Made by a program: the position numbers and the translations under genes. 64,000 bases of DNA from a virus. Positions 11,335 through 57,047 of this stretch are shown here, one piece after another (position 1 is the first letter of the stretch; every line of letters starts with the position of its first letter). The stretch is from the IMG/VR virus record IMGVR_UViG_3300020039_000026; one strand, given 5' to 3'. The notes beneath the pieces were generated by a model, which made no database searches, was not told the DNA's origin, and saw only the letters and a list, made by a program, of their open reading frames with translations.

Positions 11335-11336
11335 AA

Positions 11337-11696
11337 TACTGCAATGCATAACCCGTTCTTTGAACGTGTGCTTTGTGCGTTACGCCAAAGTATCAAGATG
11401 CTGGAAAGAAGGATGACCGACCGCACTGGCAGCCGAAAGCACACCCTGAAGGCGCCATCCCCGGCAGGGTCTAATACCCAACCGACAGCAAACGTCGATC
11501 CCGGGATCCTACCATGCAACGATTTCACATGTACAACCTGGCAGCCCAATACAGCCATACGGAACATGCGAAAATCGTAAAATAAAATGCAATCGTCCGA
11601 AGACCGGCGCGTCGCCTCCAGGACAACCCAGATGACGACATCTCTACGATCGGACTCCTCTTCAGCAAGATCACCACAGGTACTCAGATTGCAGTA
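11337..11696 (+). ncRNA. Candidate retron msr/msd noncoding RNA. A 360-nt region bounded by inverted repeats a1 TACTGCAAT (11337-11345) and a2 ATTGCAGTA (11688-11696), ending 17 nt before the RT start.
   Basis: Perfect 9-bp inverted repeat (12 bp with one bulge) flanks the whole intergenic region, which is the retron a1/a2 layout. The interior is A/C-rich with a GATCCCGGGATC palindrome. No credible ORF. Confidence 0.4.
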
Positions 11697-11713
11697 ATTG
11701 GAGATGAATCAAA

Positions 11714-12856
11714 ATGCCTTATATCACGGTAAGACAGCCTCCTCCCACACAACAGATTACATTCGATGATCTGTTTCTTTCGCCAAACGCCATTCCAAAT
11801 CTCCCGATGGCGGTAAAGCGGGATATGTCAGGTACGATCACGAGGTTCGTGAAGTGCCCTAAAAAGGAATTAGTCGAGAGAATCAACGTTCAGTCGCTTA
11901 TTGATGCTCTGGAAATTTTCAATACGAAATACGGTCAGCTTCATGCGGCAAAACGGCAGGATCTTTACCATACTTTCTATATCCCGAAGCACTCCGGCGG
12001 TTTAAGAAAAATCGACGAACCCAACGAAGAACTGATGTCTGCTCTCAGGGAGCTAAAGTCCATCTTTGAAAATAAAATGGGAGCTTTATATCATACGTCG
12101 GCGTTCGCCTATGTCCCTGGTCGTTCCACCGTGGACGCAATCAAGCGCCACCAAGCAAATGAGAGCAGGTGGTTCTTAAAAACGGATTTCTCCAATTTCT
12201 TCGGCTCTACAACCGAAGAATTTTTATTTGAGTCCACTTCTCTTATCTTTCCGTTCAGCGAAATGGTCAGGTACACGAATGGCCGGGTTCAGCTAAGGCT
12301 CGCCCTGTCCCTCTGCATGTTGAACGGCGGCTTGCCCCAGGGTACGCCCATTTCACCAATGCTCACCAATCTGATGATGATCCCGATTGATCACAGGATC
12401 TTCAACGAGCTTTCCAAGGAGGGTTTCGTATATACCAGGTACGCTGATGACATTCAGCTTTCCCATAAATTCGAGTTCGATTATAAAGGGAAGGTCGATT
12501 ACATCAATACCGTCGTCAAGAGCTTCAGAGGGCCGTTTGAAATAAAGCCTGAGAAAACGCGGTATGGTTCTTCCTCCGGACGAAACTGGAACTTGGGTTT
12601 GATGCTGAATAAGGACAACGATATAACTGTCGGATATCAGCGCAAGAAGCAATTCAAGGCCATGACGAATAACTTTATCGTGGATTATCTGAATCACACG
12701 CCATGGCCGAAGGAAGATGTCCAGCATTTGAACGGTCTCAAAAGCTACTACCTTATGGTCGAGCCTGAATACTTCAAGTATATGCTCAGCCATCTTGAAC
12801 AAAAGTACAGCATTGATTTTGAAACTATGATGAAAGCGGCCTTAAACGCGGAGTGA
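11714..12856 (+). CDS. Reverse transcriptase, retron-type by motifs
   Basis: RT motifs: FYIPKHSGGLRKI (motif 2), AYVPGRSTVDAIKRH, KTDFSNFFGS (motif A), LPQGTPISPMLTNLMM (motif B-prime), VYTRYADDIQLS (motif C, YADD). 380 aa, retron-sized. GGAGATG RBS. Confidence 0.75.
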   Translation: MPYITVRQPPPTQQITFDDLFLSPNAIPNLPMAVKRDMSGTITRFVKCPKKELVERINVQSLIDALEIFNTKYGQLHAAKRQDLYHTFYIPKHSGGLRKIDEPNEELMSALRELKSIFENKMGALYHTSAFAYVPGRSTVDAIKRHQANESRWFLKTDFSNFFGSTTEEFLFESTSLIFPFSEMVRYTNGRVQLRLALSLCMLNGGLPQGTPISPMLTNLMMIPIDHRIFNELSKEGFVYTRYADDIQLSHKFEFDYKGKVDYINTVVKSFRGPFEIKPEKTRYGSSSGRNWNLGLMLNKDNDITVGYQRKKQFKAMTNNFIVDYLNHTPWPKEDVQHLNGLKSYYLMVEPEYFKYMLSHLEQKYSIDFETMMKAALNAE

Positions 12857-16162: not shown

Positions 16163-16247
16163 GTCCCTGTGGTGGAATTGGCAGACGCGGGGGAATTAAA
16201 ATCCCTCGTCTTCGGACGTGTGAGTTCAAATCTCACCAGGGACACCA
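16163..16247 (+). tRNA. tRNA-Leu (anticodon TAA), class II with long variable arm, CCA encoded
   Basis: Acceptor GTCCCTG/CAGGGAC, D-arm GTGGTGGAATTGGCAGACGC (Leu-like), anticodon loop ATTAAAA, variable hairpin CGTC-TTCG-GACG, T-arm GTGAG-TTCAAAT-CTCAC, ACCA. Confidence 0.7.
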
Positions 16248-16249
16248 AA

Positions 16250-16570
16250 GGAATAACTGAAAAACGGGTTGGGAGGAAACAAGCTTTATTCTCGCTGCCA
16301 CCCAAAGGCAGAGAAGCAGATGGCGTACTGCACCCGTCACATAGCGTAGGTTATTCCATCCTGATGTATCCCGGCGAACAGGCCAAAAGCCGGGTGGTGG
16401 AGTGGACCCAGAGGGACGACGCGTGGGGGTGGTATCCTACGCAAATAAACCGCCAGCACAACGACTCCCTGTAGCTGGTAAACCAAAAGGCAGGCGTTTT
16501 CGTGGAGGGATACCGTAGAAGCGGAACGCAGAAGGCCAATGGTATGGGATTTACATTCATGCGGTTTGCC
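16250..16570 (+). ncRNA. Structured noncoding region with a conserved hairpin motif (16362-16398) and nested inverted repeats
   Basis: No ORF. GGAATAAC (16251) pairs with GTTATTCC (16349). GCGTAGG (16342) pairs with CCTACGC (16439). Motif TGATGTATCCCGGCGAACAGGCCAAAAGCCGGGTGGT recurs at 16652 with compensatory stem changes. Confidence 0.35.
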
Positions 16571-16575
16571 CATAA

Positions 16576-16648
16576 GGCTCCTTAGCTCAATCTGCAGAGT
16601 ATCTGACGATTAATCAGTATGATGTTGGTTCAAATCCAGCAGGAGCCA
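16576..16648 (+). tRNA. tRNA-like gene with non-canonical anticodon loop CGATTAA (G at position 33, nominal anticodon ATT). Identity unassigned.
   Basis: Perfect 7-bp acceptor GGCTCCT/AGGAGCC, D-arm GCTC-AATCTGCA-GAGT, T-arm GTTGG-TTCAAAT-CCAGC, 73 nt. Anticodon stem TCTGA/TCAGT has a terminal T-T mismatch and the loop lacks U33. Confidence 0.4.
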
Positions 16649-16649
16649 G

Positions 16650-17010
16650 ATTGATGTATCCCGATGAACAATAAAAATCGGGTGGTATGCTGTGGCTACA
16701 GGCGGAGTAGCGCTCCGCAGGGCTCCCGTTCCTAACCCTGGCCATGAATGCCTGTGGGGCTCATGGCCAAAGAACGGCTTCTGTGCGGGTAGCCTGGCGG
16801 CGATGGGTTCGATTCCCATGACTCGCGCAAGTGGCCGGGTAGCGCCCGGCTGATGTGAGCGTCCGCGCAACACCTCACAAAGAATGACAATGGCCGCTGA
16901 AAACGTACTTCGGCACATGTCCGGTCGCATGACTTCCCTCGACCGTCAGGGTGCATGACACGATCCGTCAGCGAAGCACGATAATCTAAGCGGCAAGCGC
17001 CCATTTCAGT
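16650..17010 (+). ncRNA. GC-rich structured noncoding region starting with the second copy of the covarying hairpin motif (16651-16686) and containing a tRNA T-arm-like element ATGGG-TTCGATT-CCCAT (16808-16824)
   Basis: Only antisense-looking ORFs. Multiple local hairpins (GGCGGAGTAGCGCTCCGC, GGCCATGAATGCCTGTGGGGCTCATGGCC). The T-arm-like element is followed by GACTCGC, which could pair with GCGGGTA upstream as a minihelix. Confidence 0.3.
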
Positions 17011-17094
17011 AATTCATTTGAAAGGTGGTATACATATGGAAATCCTGTTAACCAAGAAATCCCCTATGTGTATGCACGCCAGTAAGGAGTCACT

Positions 17095-17596: not shown

Positions 17597-17668
17597 GGCG
17601 GGCTTTGCAGCCGTAGTGTAATGGCAATCACACCGTCCTTCCAAGTCGGGTTTGCGGGTTCGAGTCCC
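17597..17668 (+). tRNA. tRNA-Gly (anticodon TCC)
   Basis: Acceptor GCAGCCG/CGGCTGC, anticodon stem CCGTC/GTCGG (one T-T mismatch), loop CTTCCAA, T-arm GCGGG-TTCGAGT-CCCGT. No CCA. Confidence 0.6.
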
Positions 17669-17673
17669 GTCGG

Positions 17674-17775
17674 CTGCTTTTATGGGAGAGTAACCAAGAG
17701 GTCAAAGGTGCGAGACCGTAAATCTCGCGTTCTGATATGCCGCGCTAAAACAGAACTTCGCTGGTTCAAATCCAG
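17674..17775 (+). tRNA. tRNA-Tyr-like (anticodon GTA) with unusually long 28-nt variable arm and C at position 33. About 102 nt, possibly aberrant.
   Basis: Acceptor GGGAGAG/CTCTCCC with one extra nt before it. Tyr-like D-arm AACCAAGAGGTCAAAGGT. Anticodon stem CGAGA/TCTCG with loop CCGTAAA. Variable arm GTTCTG-ATATGCCGCGCTAAAA-CAGAAC. T-arm GCTGG-TTCAAAT-CCAGT. Confidence 0.4.
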
Positions 17776-17783
17776 TCCTCTCC

Positions 17784-17872
17784 CATTTTCTTTGGAAGGT
17801 TGGCTGAGCCTGGCTGAAAGCACCGGTCTTGAAAACCGGCAGCCCCAAAAGGGGCTCGTGGGTTCAAATCCC
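17784..17872 (+). tRNA. tRNA-Ser (anticodon TGA), class II
   Basis: Acceptor GGAAGGT/ACCTTCC with G73 discriminator, anticodon stem CCGGT/ACCGG, loop CTTGAAA, variable hairpin AGCCCC-AAAA-GGGGCT, T-arm GTGGG-TTCAAAT-CCCAC. Confidence 0.7.
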
Positions 17873-18382: not shown

Positions 18383-18787
18383 TTGGTTGTAAATGGGGGA
18401 ATATCTTTGTATATCCGAAAAAGTATCCATTCCATTGAGTCCGTCTACGAAGCCGTTCATGATACGATGTTCAATCCGAAAACCACATACATCCTATTCG
18501 ATGGCGATGAAATCAAAAGCACAAGTCAGCGCTATCAGGTATTTTTTACAAAAGGGATTCGCTGCGTTTCGTGCGGCATCGAAGGGAAATATTTTGCCAA
18601 GGAAAAAGGGCATGGTTCATCACAAGATCGCTATCACCTTAATTTATACGCCATTGACGAAAATGGCAAGGAAGTCCTGATGACCAAAGACCATATCATC
18701 CCAAGATCAAAGGGTGGTTTGAATCGTCTGGAAAACTATCAAACGATGTGTCAAATCTGCAATAGCAAAAAGGGAAGCGAACATTGA
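18383..18787 (+). CDS. HNH endonuclease, free-standing
   Basis: C-terminal HNH motif HIIPRSKGGLNRLENYQTMCQICNSKKGSEH with CxxC zinc ligands. Confidence 0.6.
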   Translation: MVVNGGISLYIRKSIHSIESVYEAVHDTMFNPKTTYILFDGDEIKSTSQRYQVFFTKGIRCVSCGIEGKYFAKEKGHGSSQDRYHLNLYAIDENGKEVLMTKDHIIPRSKGGLNRLENYQTMCQICNSKKGSEH

Positions 18788-18794
18788 TAGGTCT

Positions 18795-19595
18795 ATGGAT
18801 AAAGCATGGGTACAAGAAAAGGAAGCACAAAGGGCTGAAGAAATACGGCTTACCAAAGAAACTATCCGCCGGAAAATCTTAGACGCAGGGCTTCAGGAAT
18901 ATGTCGATGTTCTCTTAGCTGGCGTAGATAAGAGCTTTGATCTTCACGTATCATTTTTGTGCGGTTCAATAGAAATACTTGACGCAATTAAGAAGAAAAC
19001 TACTGGCAACAAAGAGCTATTTGCTTCTATTATCGAAAAGTATTGCTTGTTTGAGCATAGCATCCGCGAAGAGTTGGAAAAACTTTTTCAGCTTAAATAC
19101 AGCTTCCAGCAATTTTCCGACTCAGATCTGGTCGAGTTTGATGGGGATATTATCATTACAGATCCTTGCTATGTCATGCGAGACGACGCCGAAGATGATT
19201 GGGAAAAGTGTTCTTGCGGCGAGAACATGGACGAACTCGGCATCCATCACTTCATGAGCCGCAGTACCATTATTGGCGACTGGAGCTGTACTGTCTACAA
19301 TACAGATAATCATAGGAAGATAGGTGAGTTCTGCGCCGATGCGGGAATGGTTTCTGTTCTCCTGCTAAATGAAGTCCTTCAATACAATCCGTCCTTCGAC
19401 TATCATATAAATAGGAAGTGGACGACGGCGCTGATAAAGAATTTCAAAGGAACCGTTCAGTTTGTTGTTCACGAGGTACACTTTGAGTACAATGGCGAAG
19501 ATCATGTGGGCTACGAGGTGGAAGTAGTTGGGCATGGTGTCAATAAGAAAACCGGCAAGCCTTTCAACTTTTCGTCAAGACAAACCGGGTTATAA
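18795..19595 (+). CDS. Hypothetical protein
   Basis: 266-aa ORF. Confidence 0.5.
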   Translation: MDKAWVQEKEAQRAEEIRLTKETIRRKILDAGLQEYVDVLLAGVDKSFDLHVSFLCGSIEILDAIKKKTTGNKELFASIIEKYCLFEHSIREELEKLFQLKYSFQQFSDSDLVEFDGDIIITDPCYVMRDDAEDDWEKCSCGENMDELGIHHFMSRSTIIGDWSCTVYNTDNHRKIGEFCADAGMVSVLLLNEVLQYNPSFDYHINRKWTTALIKNFKGTVQFVVHEVHFEYNGEDHVGYEVEVVGHGVNKKTGKPFNFSSRQTGL

Positions 19596-19631
19596 AATTA
19601 CGCTTTTATTAATCGATAAGGAGGTAAACCT

Positions 19632-20042
19632 GTGGCATTTTGGAATAAAAAGAAGAAAAAAGATGAAAAGCAGGAACTTCCTATTAAAATATTATCCCCT
19701 TGCGAGCGTGGTGAACACCGTTACAAGGATTTTGATTGGTATATCAAAACATATGTTGATCAGTCCTATTATAACAACCGATATGTCGTTACGGTGATCG
19801 AACCATATGTCTGCATCCATTGCGGGCACCGCGAAGATCAGGAACTCGGCAAATGGATTTTTGCAAAGAAAACGGATAAAACCGCATTCGTTGAGCATCT
19901 CAGCAAGAATCCAAACATCAAGCCAATCATCGAAGTGGAAGACGCCATTCACGATATGCAGCTTGTCGATCGAGAGTATCTTTCAATTTTTCAGCAGCTC
20001 CATCCAGATAAAAAGATTTTGGATGAAGCCAAGCCGGATTAA
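19632..20042 (+). CDS. Hypothetical protein with Cys/His pairs
   Basis: 136-aa ORF with AAGGAGG RBS. CERGEHRY...CIHCGH suggests a zinc-binding fold. Its 3-prime end overlaps the tRNA-Thr start. Confidence 0.5.
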   Translation: MAFWNKKKKKDEKQELPIKILSPCERGEHRYKDFDWYIKTYVDQSYYNNRYVVTVIEPYVCIHCGHREDQELGKWIFAKKTDKTAFVEHLSKNPNIKPIIEVEDAIHDMQLVDREYLSIFQQLHPDKKILDEAKPD

Positions 20043-20105
20043 CTCAATTGGCAGAGTGCCGCTTTTGTACTGCGGAAGCTGCGGGTTCAATTCCTGTATC
20101 CGGCT
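20033..20105 (+). tRNA. tRNA-Thr (anticodon TGT)
   Basis: Acceptor GCCGGAT/ATCCGGC, D-stem ACTC/GAGT, anticodon stem CCGCT/TGCGG (terminal T-T), loop TTTGTAC, T-arm GCGGG-TTCAATT-CCTGT. No CCA. Confidence 0.55.
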
Positions 20106-20107
20106 CT

Positions 20108-20181
20108 GCCCCTGTCGCCTAAATGGAATAAGGCACCGGTTTCGTACTCCGGAGATGCTGGATCGTACCCAGCCAGGGGCT
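20108..20181 (+). tRNA. tRNA-Thr (anticodon CGT) with non-canonical T-loop ATCGTAC
   Basis: Acceptor GCCCCTG/CAGGGGC, D-stem GCCT/AGGC, anticodon stem CCGGT/TCCGG (terminal T-T), loop TTCGTAC, T-arm GCTGG-ATCGTAC-CCAGC. No CCA. Confidence 0.5.
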
Positions 20182-20205
20182 TTTGATTTGTAATGAGGTG
20201 ATATT

Positions 20206-20994
20206 ATGCCAGACTCCCTCGGTGACCGAATGAAAGCATATGAGAATATTTCCAGAATCTATCTTACGAAACGCCTGCCGGTTATTATCCGAATCGACGG
20301 GCGTGCGTTTCATACTCTTACTCGCGGTTTTGACCGTCCGTTTGATACTGTGTTTTCACGCTCTATGTGGGATACGGCGGCAGAGCTATGTAAGGAAATT
20401 GGCGGTGCAAAATTAGCTTACACCCAAAGCGATGAAATTTCCATCCTCCTCACCAATGACGATAACCTCGAAACCCAGCCGTGGTTCGATAATAATCTGC
20501 AAAAGCTGGTCAGTGTCGCCGCTTCGACCGCCACCAAGGAATTCAATAATATCTTCGACTGGTATTGGATCAATAATGATCCTGATGGAGAATTGCGGCT
20601 TGCTTATTCCAGAGCCTCCGGCGAAGCTACATTTGACGCCAGGGCATTCGTTCTTCCTCATGACGAGGTATGCAATTATTTCATTTGGCGGCAGCAGGAT
20701 GCCGTCCGCAATTCTATCCAGATGGCGGCTCAAAGCGTCTATTCTCACAAGGAACTGCAAGGGAAAAATCAAAACGACCTTCAGGAAATGTTGTTTCAGA
20801 AAGGAATCAATTGGAATAATTATGGTCCGTGGCACAAGCGCGGCGTGTGCGTAATTAAAAAGTTTGCGGAAGAGCAGGCCACCGGCGAGGAACAGGCACG
20901 TCTGCACTGGGTAGTGGATATGAATATTCCTATCTTCACTCAGGATCGTGGCTATATCGAAAACGCTTTGAAAGGGAATCAGAATGACACTTGA
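20206..20994 (+). CDS. Thg1-like protein (tRNA-His guanylyltransferase family 3-prime-to-5-prime polymerase)
   Basis: N-terminal MKAYENISRIYLTKRLPVIIRIDGRAFHTLTRGF matches the Thg1/TLP signature (FEYV...P.VVRIDGR.FH.F). 262 aa. Immediately downstream of the tRNA array. Confidence 0.6.
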   Translation: MPDSLGDRMKAYENISRIYLTKRLPVIIRIDGRAFHTLTRGFDRPFDTVFSRSMWDTAAELCKEIGGAKLAYTQSDEISILLTNDDNLETQPWFDNNLQKLVSVAASTATKEFNNIFDWYWINNDPDGELRLAYSRASGEATFDARAFVLPHDEVCNYFIWRQQDAVRNSIQMAAQSVYSHKELQGKNQNDLQEMLFQKGINWNNYGPWHKRGVCVIKKFAEEQATGEEQARLHWVVDMNIPIFTQDRGYIENALKGNQNDT

Positions 20995-22006
20995 AGAAAT
21001 CAAATCCACAATCGCAGGAAGCTCGTATGATTTTCTTAGAAATGATGAGCATTTGGTCGGCAGGATTGCTTTCATATGTCTCGGTGGTTCTTATGCATAC
21101 GGTACGAATGTAGAAGGTTCTGACCTGGATATTCGCGGCTGTGCATTAAATAGCGCAAGCGAGCTGATCGGCTTTCATCGTTTCGAGCAGCTTGTCGATT
21201 CCAAAACCGACACGACGATTTACGCCTTCAACAAATTGATCCGTCTCCTCCATTGCTGCAATCCAAATGTAATAGAGATGCTCGGTTGCAAACCTGAGCA
21301 TTATTTTTTCATGTCGGATGTCGGCAGGCAAATGATCGAGAACAGAAAAATGTTCTTGTCGAAACGTGCCGCCTATACATTCGGTGGCTATGCGTTCTCA
21401 CAGCTTCGTCGCCTTGAGAACGCCATTGCCCGTGACAGGCTTGATCAAGGCAGGAAAGAAGTTCATATCCGAAACAGCATTGATAAGGTTGTCAAGAATT
21501 TTAATAACGAAGGAAGAGCCATCCCTGTTTCATACACGCTTGATTTAGGCGCAGCCGTCCATGATGACCTGGAAACCGAAACATATATCACCATGGATTT
21601 AGGATATTATCCCGTCAGGGATTTAAAGGCGCTGGTCAACGAAATCAATAATGTCATTAACGACTATCAGAACGATCTGCATGGAAGAAATAAAAAGAAA
21701 GATGATTTTCATCTGAATAAACACGCCATGCATTTAATTCGCCTGTATTTGATGGCCATCGATATTTTGGAAAAGGAAGAAGTCGTCACATATAGAGAGA
21801 AGGATCACGACCTTTTGATGAGCATTAGGAATGGAAAATTCCAGCACGAAGACGGTACGTTCGACAGCTCATTCTTCGATTTGGTGCACCATCTTTCTCA
21901 TCGCATGGAATACGCGAAGGAAAACACGTCTCTTCCAAACAGTCCAGATGCAGACAAGATTGAAAAATTTGTAATGGATGTTAATCGACGAGTTATTTGT
22001 GATTAG
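20984..22006 (+). CDS. Pol-beta-superfamily nucleotidyltransferase (GS...DxD), specific family unassigned
   Basis: ICLGGSYAYGTNVEGSDLDIRG is the minimal NTase G[SG]x9-13DxD motif, followed by a roughly 250-aa helical region. Start overlaps the Thg1-like gene. Confidence 0.5.
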   Translation: MTLEEIKSTIAGSSYDFLRNDEHLVGRIAFICLGGSYAYGTNVEGSDLDIRGCALNSASELIGFHRFEQLVDSKTDTTIYAFNKLIRLLHCCNPNVIEMLGCKPEHYFFMSDVGRQMIENRKMFLSKRAAYTFGGYAFSQLRRLENAIARDRLDQGRKEVHIRNSIDKVVKNFNNEGRAIPVSYTLDLGAAVHDDLETETYITMDLGYYPVRDLKALVNEINNVINDYQNDLHGRNKKKDDFHLNKHAMHLIRLYLMAIDILEKEEVVTYREKDHDLLMSIRNGKFQHEDGTFDSSFFDLVHHLSHRMEYAKENTSLPNSPDADKIEKFVMDVNRRVICD

Positions 22007-56712: not shown

Positions 56713-57047
56713 TACATATTGCGGGTAGCCAAGCACTAATAGGCGAGAAGAAAATATAGCTCATACGGTGGGACACCAGCGGAGAGGACCGCGTCACCAA
56801 CATCCGTGCAACCCAACCTGAGACGCGCGTGATTGCGCATATACAGAGGACGGAACAGGCAGCCGTCGCCATAAATAAATAGGAGATATGGAAGTGTCGC
56901 TCCATCTGTATATGCAACTGCACGCCCCGCAGAGAAAACGAGAGCGGCACACCGGCATCGTGTTACTGTACTACCTCGCAGTAACCATAGCGGTAACTTT
57001 GACCTTTCGGTGCGCCCTCTTATTCATAATAAACAAAGAAACCACAC

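What the first reader, a model, noticed from the sequence alone, without database searches (positions are those of the whole stretch)
16250..17010. Two copies of a hairpin motif with compensatory base changes, inside about 700 nt of ORF-free structured sequence between tRNA genes
TGATGTAT-CCCGGC-gaacaggccaaaa-GCCGGG-TGGT (16362-16398) recurs as TGATGTAT-CCCGAT-gaacaataaaa-ATCGGG-TGGT (16652-16686). The GC to AT and GC to TA swaps preserve pairing, which is the signature of a selected RNA structure. The first copy sits in a domain closed by GGAATAAC/GTTATTCC (16251/16349) and GCGTAGG/CCTACGC (16342/16439) pairings. The second opens a 360-nt GC-rich region containing a tRNA T-arm-like element ATGGG-TTCGATT-CCCAT (16808-16824), whose flanks could form an acceptor-like minihelix (GCGGGTA at 16786 pairing with GACTCGC at 16825, 6 of 7). 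I could not match it to tmRNA (no tag ORF ending ALAA, no 3-prime CCA), RNase P RNA (no GGAAAGTCCGGGCTCC) or a group I intron. Candidates include a tRNA-like decoy, a processing or regulatory element of the tRNA operon, or a novel phage ncRNA.
Basis: seen in the sequence. Interest (0 to 1): 0.6.

Follow-up and report, generated by a model that had tools for sequence, protein, structure and literature searches.

The report
Conserved structured RNA in phage tRNA array
The flagged stretch is non-coding RNA inside a phage tRNA gene cluster, and its last 170 bases are one copy of a widespread, pseudoknotted phage RNA family that is absent from Rfam, almost always abuts tRNA genes, and has no known function.

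Summary
The repeated hairpin is real (16362-16398 and 16652-16686; two stem pairs swapped with pairing kept) and recurs once in another phage tRNA array. It is the weakest-supported feature here.

The important feature is window 16833-17006. This is a ~170-nt RNA with two 5' hairpins, a long-range helix, a variable central domain and a pseudoknot. I found 29 distinct copies in uncultivated phage contigs, with strong covariation. In most copies a tRNA ends 2-4 nt upstream or starts about 10 nt downstream.

No Rfam family matches. It is not tmRNA, RNase P RNA, GOLLD or ROOL.

The domain at 16250-16357 is also conserved, with compensatory changes, in three other phage arrays.

Best reading: stable non-coding RNAs co-transcribed with tRNAs and cut out by tRNA-processing enzymes. 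This is the arrangement of phage T4 species 1 and 2 RNAs, and T4 species 2 shares the family's first hairpin. Function is unknown.

Verdict: a new member of a known kind, of moderate to high interest.

The parts
16163..16247 (+). tRNA-Leu(UAA) with encoded CCA. Upstream boundary of the non-coding stretch.
   Evidence: ARAGORN; Rfam tRNA, 48.4 bits.
16250..16357 (+). Domain A1: stem-closed structured domain (GGAAUAAC...GUUAUUCC). Conserved motifs are UGAAAAACGGnnUGGGAGGAAACA and CCGUCACAYAGYGUAG.
   Evidence: Homologs in IMG/VR loci L121, L129 and L130, each shortly upstream of a tRNA. Compensatory changes occur in the closing stem (AAC/GUU vs AGG/CCU) and in the ACGGR/YCCGU helix. Only two independent lineages are represented.
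16362..16398 (+).
   Evidence: In the minimum-energy fold of the whole spacer, its 5' part instead pairs with GGGAUAC at 16510-16516.
16399..16575 (+). Unassigned GC-rich spacer (A3).
   Evidence: No homolog was found. Resemblances to a core variable domain and to 5S rRNA were not above shuffles.
16576..16648 (+). tRNA with an unusual anticodon loop, CGAUUAA (called Asn-AUU). No encoded CCA.
   Evidence: ARAGORN; Rfam tRNA, 53.1 bits, with alignment.
16652..16686 (+). It starts 3 nt after the tRNA.
   Evidence: There is a 32/34-identical copy in L121 14072-14105, in the spacer between tRNA-Pro and tRNA-Asp.
16702..16718 (+). Hairpin GCGGAG-UAGCG-CUCCGC. It has the same pentaloop as P1 of the 3' element.
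   Evidence: Read from the sequence. Not tested by comparison with other phages.
16739..16769 (+). Hairpin with loop AUGCCUGUGGGGC.
   Evidence: Fold z-score -3.25. The same loop sits on different stems upstream of the core in L032 and inside the core's variable domain in the L006 family.
16785..16827 (+). tRNA-like minihelix: acceptor-like stem (16785-16791 with 16820-16826), an 11-nt linker, the T-arm at 16803-16819, then G + CAA.
   Evidence: Minimum-energy structure holds 84% of the ensemble. The Rfam tmRNA model matches only the T-loop (13.3 bits). ARAGORN and the Rfam tRNA model report no tRNA here. Relatives have a tRNA or tRNA-like element ending ...CCGCACAAGU at the same position.
16833..17006 (+). 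Conserved pseudoknotted RNA, the 'core'.
- P1: 16834-16839 with 16845-16850, loop UAGCG.
- P2: 16855-16859 with 16874-16878.
- Pseudoknot: GCGC 16865-16868 with GCGC 16997-17000.
- P3: 16893-16898 with 16989-16994.
- Variable domain P4: 16905-16979.
- Conserved joints: AGAAUGACAAUG, GAAAAC and GAUAAUCUA.
   Evidence: Covariance model R1 scores 137.8 bits, E=6e-35, and finds a single copy in the window. There are 29 distinct homologs. Pair counts: 89.5% paired against 34-39% with partners slid; 12 pairs changed on both sides; 0/500 shuffles reach the score.

Best explanation
Window 16250-17006 is the non-tRNA part of a phage tRNA operon. It holds several structured non-coding RNA modules, punctuated by one tRNA and one tRNA-like minihelix.

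**The module that matters.** The last one (16833-17006) is a member of a previously uncatalogued family of 113-190-nt phage RNAs. Each has:
- a 5' hairpin P1 with a U(A/C)GCN loop;
- a second hairpin P2 whose loop pairs with the 3' tail to form a pseudoknot;
- a long-range helix P3;
- an asymmetric, almost invariant internal loop;
- a lineage-specific central domain P4.

**Proposed mechanism.**
1. The RNA is made as part of the polycistronic tRNA precursor.
2. RNase P, cutting at the 5' end of the next tRNA, defines its 3' end.
3. 3'-end processing of the preceding tRNA defines its 5' end. In this window that role is taken by the acceptor/T-arm minihelix at 16785-16827.
4. The released compact pseudoknotted RNA then acts in trans, most likely by binding a protein or RNA partner through its invariant joints.

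**Shown versus inferred.** Shown: conservation, covariation, the fold, the tight abutment to tRNAs, restriction to phage contigs, and the absence from Rfam. Inferred: the processing route, stability, trans action and any function.

I read these as further, less widespread modules of the same kind of spacer RNA.
For: - **Homologs.** Exact-motif scans gave copies in IMG/VR and metagenome contigs and in GenBank MT836871. Model R1 finds 29 distinct copies at 102-163 bits.
- **Structure.** RNAalifold on its own chose P1, P3, P4 and the pseudoknot. On 29 sequences, 89.5% of cells are paired against 34-39% when partners are slid. Twelve pairs changed on both sides, and 0/500 shuffles reach the covariation score. 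The pseudoknot switches GCGC/GCGC to CGGC/GCCG in 7 sequences.
- **RNA rather than DNA.** G-U pairs are used in P2, P3 and P4, and the orientation is always that of the flanking tRNAs.
- **Abutment to tRNAs.** A downstream tRNA starts 9-13 nt after GCGGCAA in 20 of 28 distinct copies, and 18 nt after it in one more. An upstream tRNA ends 2-4 nt before P1 in 11 of 28. In several phages the element fills the whole 148-190-nt gap between two tRNAs.
- **One copy with its own promoter.** In L072 a TTGAAT-17-TATAAT promoter-like site ends 2 nt before the model match.
- **Transcription context here.** No promoter-like or terminator-like site lies on the + strand between 15300 and 18000.
- **No coding signal**.
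- **Precedent.** T4 encodes rnaD (119 nt) and rnaC (139 nt) directly after tRNA-Arg. They are expressed RNAs of unknown function (PMC9697503).
Against: - There are no expression or end-mapping data for any family member.
- In this window the core is not followed by a tRNA. An ORF starts about 90 nt downstream, so its 3' end here is undefined.
- Seventeen of 28 copies have no ARAGORN-detectable tRNA directly upstream.
- Single-sequence folding energy of the core is not unusual (z = -0.6).
- No conserved partner protein was found in the flanks held, so trans action is a guess.
- The two public contigs that carry this window are identical to it over the 12.4 kb held for each, so this phage lineage gives no variation.
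- The hairpin motif and A1 rest on very few lineages.
Confidence: 0.7

Rival explanations
1. Array debris. The stretch, or at least region A, the two hairpins and the minihelix, is decayed tRNA genes and duplicated fragments left by array turnover, with no function of its own.
For: - The minihelix is a tRNA top half without D and anticodon arms.
- In L121, the sequence after the hairpin motif looks like a tRNA 5' half without a T-arm.
- The hairpin motif is absent from the equivalent spacer in L129.
- Folding z-scores are weak.
Against: - The core is conserved with covariation across many unrelated contigs.
- A1 keeps its helices through compensatory changes.
- The flanks of the hairpin motif (UGAUGUAU, UGGU) are identical in three copies while the stem and loop vary.
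Confidence: 0.3
2. Cis-acting spacer. The structures do not act in trans. They serve the operon itself by positioning RNase P/Z/E cleavage, blocking exonucleases, or insulating the folding of neighbouring tRNAs.
For: - Tight and constant spacing to the flanking tRNAs.
- The P1-type hairpin lies a few nt after a tRNA 3' end both in this family and in T4 rnaD.
- The identity of the downstream tRNA is not conserved.
Against: - There is only one copy per array while most tRNA junctions lack it.
- Near-invariant unpaired nucleotides and a pseudoknot are more than a spacer needs.
- In L072 it heads a transcript behind its own promoter-like site.
- In this window no tRNA follows it.
Confidence: 0.2
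3. Reverse-transcriptase template. The core is the ncRNA partner of the phage reverse transcriptase at 11714-12856, by analogy with UG27 or retron ncRNAs, and the variable central hairpin is copied into cDNA.
For: - Architecture resembles UG27 units: about 150 nt, a pseudoknot, and a variable central hairpin bracketed by a conserved asymmetric loop (bioRxiv 10.64898/2026.09.22.753630).
- A 380-aa RT lies 4 kb upstream.
Against: - No RT homolog (phmmer, E<=1) occurs in any other locus carrying the core.
- The UG27 motif AUCN7UANAG is absent from the region.
- The element is single-copy, not arrayed.
- The window's RT has YADD and scores best as a retron RT.
- That RT has its own 380-nt non-coding leader.
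Confidence: 0.05
4. DNA-level element, such as an integration (att) site or replication element next to tRNA genes, rather than an RNA.
For: tRNA genes are common integration targets (general knowledge).
Against: - Helices are maintained by compensatory and G-U changes that only make sense on the tRNA-sense strand.
- The central domain varies freely in sequence and length.
- Among 185,579 species genomes only one truncated relic was found.
Confidence: 0.03

Closest known systems
Phage T4 species 2 RNA (rnaD) and species 1 RNA (rnaC)
   Same: - Small stable RNAs (119 and 139 nt) encoded directly after a tRNA in a phage tRNA cluster. Function is still unknown.
- rnaD begins with ACCGG-GUCGCUA-CCGGU. 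This is 14/17 identical to P1 of one subfamily, and the one end pair that differs is compensatory.
- The P1 pattern occurs in the 161 held loci only in core copies and in rnaD.
- T-even rnaD has invariant 5' and 3' parts around a freely varying central hairpin and ends ...CGGCGCAC, like the core's ...AGCGGCAAGCGCAC.
- rnaC ends in a T-arm minihelix like window 16785-16827.
   Different: - Covariance models hit each other's family only at P1: 5.7 bits (R1 on T4) and 7-17 bits (R2 on cores).
- rnaD has no P2 hairpin and none of the GACAAU joints.
- Homology is therefore unproven. It may be shared design or one shared module.
GOLLD and ROOL large RNAs
   Same: - Phage or prophage RNAs of unknown function, often next to tRNA islands.
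- GOLLD has a conserved 3' part and a variable 5' part, and sometimes an embedded tRNA (PMC12286853).
- The window shows the same layout over about 760 nt.
   Different: - No match to either Rfam model even at E<=10.
- The conserved unit here is only 113-190 nt and occurs alone between two tRNAs.
UG27 reverse-transcriptase ncRNA units
   Same: Units of about 150-167 nt with a pseudoknot, a basal hairpin and a variable central hairpin bracketed by a conserved asymmetric internal loop, found in gut phages.
   Different: - Not arrayed, and not next to a UG27 RT or its accessory genes.
- The diagnostic motifs AUCN7UANAG and UUYA are absent.
tRNA-spacer-derived and tRNA-punctuated RNAs (E. coli 3'ETS-leuZ; MALAT1/mascRNA). 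Cited from my own knowledge, not checked here.
   Same: A functional RNA is released from a precursor by tRNA-processing enzymes acting on an adjacent tRNA or tRNA-like structure.
   Different: - Those RNAs are unrelated in sequence and fold.
- 3'ETS-leuZ acts by base-pairing as a sponge. No target is known here.
tmRNA
   Same: A T-arm plus acceptor-like stem. The Rfam tmRNA model matches the T-loop (13.3 bits).
   Different: No tag reading frame, no pseudoknot series, not found by ARAGORN, and far below the gathering score.

Membership tests
tRNA-array pseudoknotted RNA (family defined here, model R1) | P1 hairpin CCGGK-UMGCN-MCCGG a few nt after the upstream element. | tested here: met
   Window 16835-16849. 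It is the only match in 64 kb.
tRNA-array pseudoknotted RNA (family defined here, model R1) | P2, P3, P4 and the P2-loop/3'-tail pseudoknot, with conserved joints AAUGACAAUGG, GAAAAC and GAYAAUYUAAGCGGCAAGC. | tested here: met
   Full-length match at 137.8 bits. All helices are intact in the window sequence.
tRNA-array pseudoknotted RNA (family defined here, model R1) | A tRNA about 10 nt downstream, and a tRNA or tRNA-like 3' end directly upstream. | tested here: inconclusive
   Upstream is a tRNA-like minihelix, not a full tRNA. No tRNA lies downstream; the next one is at 17607.
T4 species 2 RNA (rnaD) | Full-length similarity to the T-even rnaD model. | tested here: not met
   On core-bearing loci, model R2 matches only P1, at 7-17 bits. 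R1 on T4 gives 5.7 bits, also on P1.
T4 species 2 RNA (rnaD) | 5' hairpin ACCGG-GUCGCUA-CCGGU just after a tRNA, a variable central hairpin, and a 3' end ...GGCGCAC. | tested here: met
   Searches compared. The comparison of the 3' ends was made by eye.
GOLLD / ROOL | Match to Rfam RF01998 or RF03087. | tested here: not met
   No hit at gathering score or at E<=10. None in 20 related loci either.
GOLLD / ROOL | Phage location next to tRNA islands. | tested here: met
   description in PMC12286853.
tmRNA | tRNA-like domain plus tag reading frame, detectable by ARAGORN or Rfam RF00023. | tested here: not met
   ARAGORN finds none. Only 17 nt of T-loop match, 13.3 bits against a gathering score of 47.
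RNase P RNA / group I intron | Match to the Rfam models. | tested here: not met
   No hit at E<=10.
UG27 ncRNA unit | Tandem array beside a UG27 RT (YSDD) and its two accessory genes. | tested here: not met
   Single copy. The window's RT has YADD and is retron-like. No RT lies near the other copies.
UG27 ncRNA unit | Motifs AUCN7UANAG and UUYA bracketing the central hairpin. | tested here: not met
   There is no AUCN7UANAG match in 16250-17010. UUYA was not scanned for; no match was seen by eye at the 5' side of the central hairpin (GCUGAAAAC).
canonical tRNA (for 16785-16827) | Cloverleaf with D, anticodon and T arms. | tested here: not met
   Only an acceptor-like stem and a T-arm are present.

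The most novel reading that the evidence does not exclude
The core family and T4 species 2 RNA are remote relatives. Together they would form one ancient, pan-phage class of tRNA-cluster RNA: a shared post-tRNA hairpin, a closing helix, a conserved internal loop and a variable payload hairpin. Their function would be tied to phage tRNA supply, repair or protection from host tRNA-targeting defences. In this window the class would sit in a modular ~760-nt RNA with an embedded tRNA, laid out like GOLLD. If true, a 50-year-old orphan RNA of T4 becomes a tractable model for a family widespread in gut phages.
Probability: 0.2. Interest if true: 0.8.

Novelty: new member of a known kind. Interest (0 to 1): 0.6.

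Why it matters
Phage tRNA clusters are now seen as tools against host tRNA-cleaving defences and for codon supply. Yet the non-tRNA RNAs inside them (T4 species 1 and 2, GOLLD, ROOL) have no assigned function.

This family adds a compact example. It is strongly conserved and pseudoknotted, and its ends are predicted to be set by tRNA-processing enzymes. It occurs in many uncultivated phages from human gut and other metagenomes.

Its small size (113 nt in the shortest copy) and near-invariant joints make it suitable for structure determination, partner pull-downs and genetics. The shared first hairpin with T4 rnaD offers a cultured system in which to test what such RNAs do.

Tried and rejected
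- **Known RNA families.** Rfam at gathering score and at E<=10 on the window and on 20 related loci gave only tRNAs, a skipping-rope RNA elsewhere in the window, and a 17-nt tmRNA T-loop match.
- **Chance motif hits.** An exact scan for the hairpin's 5' half in IMG/VR gave only chance hits in coding sequence. Most metagenome and genome hits to the 3' motif were chance hits with no upstream core motifs, many of them one recurring sequence.
- **Synteny.** Relatives of the flanking 134-aa protein have no tRNA array nearby.
- **Link to a reverse transcriptase.** Rejected: no RT near other copies, no UG27 motif, and the window's RT is retron-like with its own leader.
- **Conserved partner protein.** None found. 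One small HExxH protein occurs in three lineages.
- **Long-insert tRNA.** A 5' acceptor strand that would turn the T-arm into a tRNA with a long insert was not found convincingly. The only full complement lies inside tRNA-Leu.
- **5S rRNA resemblance** (AGAAG..AAUGGUA) scored 26 against a shuffle maximum of 27. Rejected.
- **Shared 'CCGUAGAAGGCGGAA' module** between 16513-16526 and another phage's variable domain: not above shuffles.
- **Apparent core fragment in L121** (CAATGGCCGCTGAA): it lies in a coding region.
- **Literature.** A sequence search for the conserved motifs gave only unrelated hits. The supplement of the viral structured-RNA catalogue is not held.
- **Cultured phages.** Only MT836871, an unannotated faecal contig, carries the element in GenBank phages.
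Full report
**1. The observation**

The window between 14.5 and 20.5 kb is a phage tRNA island on the + strand. ARAGORN finds eight tRNAs and Rfam adds a ninth.

The flagged stretch runs from the CCA end of tRNA-Leu(UAA) at 16247 to about 17006. A tRNA at 16576-16648 interrupts it.

The repeated hairpin is present exactly as described, at 16362-16398 and 16652-16686. Its 19-nt 5' pattern has no other match in 64 kb even with three mismatches (expected 0.14; 0/100 shuffles gave two). Two of the six stem pairs are swapped with pairing kept.

The T-arm is at 16803-16819, GCGGGTA at 16785, GACTCGC at 16820, GGAATAAC at 16250 and GTTATTCC at 16350.

Mechanical ORFs exist, but they hit no protein family. 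Gene callers on the two identical public contigs left the region essentially empty.

Single-sequence folding energies are ordinary, so any claim of structure needs comparative evidence.

**2. What is known does not explain it**

Rfam 15 gives nothing for 16248-16575 or 16649-17036, either at gathering score or at E<=10. The one exception is a 17-nt match of the tmRNA model to the T-loop. The region is therefore not tmRNA, RNase P RNA, a group I intron, GOLLD or ROOL.

**3. The 3' 170 nt is a member of a widespread family**

A blastn search of GenBank phages found one partial match (16830-16904), in an unannotated faecal phage contig, MT836871. There it also lies between tRNAs.

I took two shared strings (ATGACAATGGCCGCTGAAAA and AATCTAAGCGGCAAGC) and used them to scan IMG/VR and the metagenome collection. 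This gave many more copies.

Their common plan is:
- hairpin P1 (GCCGGG-UAGCG-CCCGGC);
- UGAU;
- hairpin P2 (GUGAG...CUCAC);
- AGAGAAUGACAAUG;
- the P3 5' strand, GCCGCU;
- GAAAAC;
- a variable domain P4, ranging from a short hairpin to about 100 nt;
- GUGACAAUCUA;
- the P3 3' strand, AGCGGC;
- AA, then GCGC, then ACAAAU.

RNAalifold, unprompted, paired the GCGC in the P2 loop with the GCGC of the 3' tail. In the MT836871-like subfamily both sides change together, CGGC with GCCG.

A covariance model (R1) finds one copy in the window (16826-17006, 137.8 bits, E=6e-35) and 29 distinct copies overall.

On that alignment 89.5% of cells are paired, against 34-39% when partners are slid by 1-3 columns. 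Twelve of 27 pairs show changes on both sides, and no shuffle in 500 reaches the covariation score. P3 never changes on both sides; it varies only through G-U. The use of G-U pairs and the constant orientation argue for an RNA rather than a DNA element.

The shortest copy is 113 nt (L033).

**4. Relation to tRNAs**

Across 28 distinct copies:
- a tRNA begins 9-13 nt after GCGGCAA in 20, and 18 nt after it in one more;
- a tRNA ends 2-4 nt before P1 in 11;
- in five lineages the element is the entire 148-190-nt gap between two tRNAs.

The identity of the neighbouring tRNAs is not conserved.

Where ARAGORN finds no upstream tRNA, the preceding sequence still often ends like one. Examples are ...GGUUCAAGUCCCGCCAUCCGCACAAGU in L050, which scores as a weak tRNA in Rfam although a GAAA tetraloop replaces the anticodon loop, and stem-plus-ACCA ends in L006 and L033.

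In the window this position is held by GCGGGUA-(11 nt)-AUGGGUUCGAUUCCCAU-GACUCGC-G-CAAGU. This is an acceptor/T-arm minihelix and it dominates the folding ensemble (84%).

One copy (L072) instead sits 2 nt behind a TTGAAT-17-TATAAT promoter-like site.

In the window no promoter-like or terminator-like site lies on the + strand between 15300 and 18000. That is consistent with one long precursor.

From this I infer, but have not shown, that RNase P and the tRNA 3'-end machinery release the core as a discrete RNA.

**5. Distribution**

- Copies come from uncultivated phage contigs of about 20-85 kb and from this phage of over 100 kb.
- Record names identify human gut and faecal sources for several. 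I did not look up the sources of the other metagenomes.
- GenBank phages hold only MT836871.
- Among one genome for each of 185,579 species, the 3' motif found only a truncated relic, in a Pseudoflavonifractor MAG.
- No protein family, and no reverse transcriptase, recurs in the flanks.

**6. The rest of the stretch**

*Domain A1 (16250-16357).* It shares UGAAAAACGGnnUGGGAGGAAACA and CCGUCACAYAGYGUAG with three IMG/VR arrays (L121, L129, L130), each time shortly before a tRNA. Only two independent lineages are available, however.

*The hairpin motif.* It has one further copy, in L121 (32/34 identical to copy 2; the stem is the same and the loop differs), in a tRNA-Pro/tRNA-Asp spacer. It is missing from the equivalent spacer of L129 and from all other loci. 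It is a real, probably selected small hairpin, but the evidence is thin.

*The hairpin at 16739-16769.* It carries a 13-14-nt loop (AUGCYUGYGGGGCU) that reappears on different stems upstream of the core in L032 and inside the variable domain in the MT836871 subfamily. This suggests shuffling of modules.

*Spacer 16399-16575.* No homolog was found.

**7. Comparison with known systems**

*T4 rnaD and rnaC.* The arrangement is that of T4. rnaD (species 2, 119 nt) and rnaC (species 1, 139 nt) follow tRNA-Arg directly and are still of unknown function (PMC9697503).
- rnaD begins with a hairpin almost identical to P1. The pattern CCGGKTMGCNMCCGG occurs in the 161 held loci only in core copies and in rnaD. 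I estimate the chance of a match in the 6-kb T4 locus at about 4e-4.
- T-even rnaD homologs have invariant 5' and 3' parts around a freely varying central hairpin, closed by a long-range helix. This is the same design as the core.
- rnaC ends in a T-arm minihelix.
- However, each family's covariance model recognises only P1 in the other. Homology is therefore not established.

*GOLLD and ROOL.* They share the context: phage, tRNA islands, and in GOLLD a conserved 3' part with a variable 5' part and an embedded tRNA. They do not match by model.

*UG27 ncRNA units.* They share the architecture. Their motifs, array form and RT linkage are absent here.

**8. Verdict**

The finding is real but mis-centred. 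The key object is an uncatalogued, strongly supported, pseudoknotted RNA family embedded in phage tRNA arrays. The window also carries less widespread modules, namely A1, the duplicated hairpin and a tRNA-derived minihelix.

The mechanism I commit to is co-transcription with tRNAs, release by tRNA-processing enzymes, and action in trans through the invariant joints. I hold the first two steps at about 0.6-0.7. The third is a guess. Function is unknown.

Noticed in passing
window 11335-12856: A 380-aa reverse transcriptase (YADD) scores best against retron RT models (RT_II-A, 163.8 bits). It is preceded by a 380-nt stretch with no called gene, which could be its msr/msd-type ncRNA. A retron-type RT in a >100-kb phage is unusual.
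   Followed up: partly
window 56839-56913: A skipping-rope RNA (RF02924) at 57.6 bits, above its gathering score. This is another orphan structured RNA in the same phage.
   Followed up: no
window 17685-17784: A 100-nt tRNA-like sequence found by Rfam (34 bits) but not by ARAGORN, sitting between tRNA-Gly and tRNA-Ser. It may be a tRNA with a long insertion.
   Followed up: no
window 16576-16648: This tRNA has the anticodon loop CGAUUAA (G at position 33). ARAGORN calls it Asn with an AUU anticodon, which is atypical, so its decoding identity is unclear.
   Followed up: no
window 18383-22006: The tRNA island also encodes an HNH endonuclease, a Thg1-like tRNA 5'-end repair enzyme and an RlaP RNA-repair nucleotidyltransferase. 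Together these look like a tRNA supply-and-repair module.
   Followed up: partly
L050 (- strand, upstream of the core at 1387-1555); also L073 and L059: Upstream of the core, these phages share another conserved module, CAGCGGAAACCGYMUGACAGCNSGGAAAGACSG (present twice in L050). They also share a tRNA-like element with acceptor GCGGAUG/CAUCCGC whose anticodon arm is replaced.
   Followed up: no
L006 4740-4995; also L035 and L012: Two further stem-closed modules, each ending in ACCA like a tRNA 3' end, precede the core in the MT836871-type phages. ARAGORN and Rfam recognise neither as a tRNA.
   Followed up: no
L086 1877-1949, 4851-4935 and 5071-5148: This array carries two tRNAs with a UCA anticodon (called SeC; possible UGA suppressors) and one with a four-base anticodon. 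This hints at stop-codon recoding in that phage.
   Followed up: no
L121 13622-13909 and L129 445-928: Long spacers between tRNAs share blocks such as CUGCGGAACACACGAAUUCUCACUAA and GGCUUAGCAGCAGACUAUAAUAAAAAGACAGGCGAAGUAAGUG. This may be yet another conserved non-tRNA RNA in these arrays.
   Followed up: no
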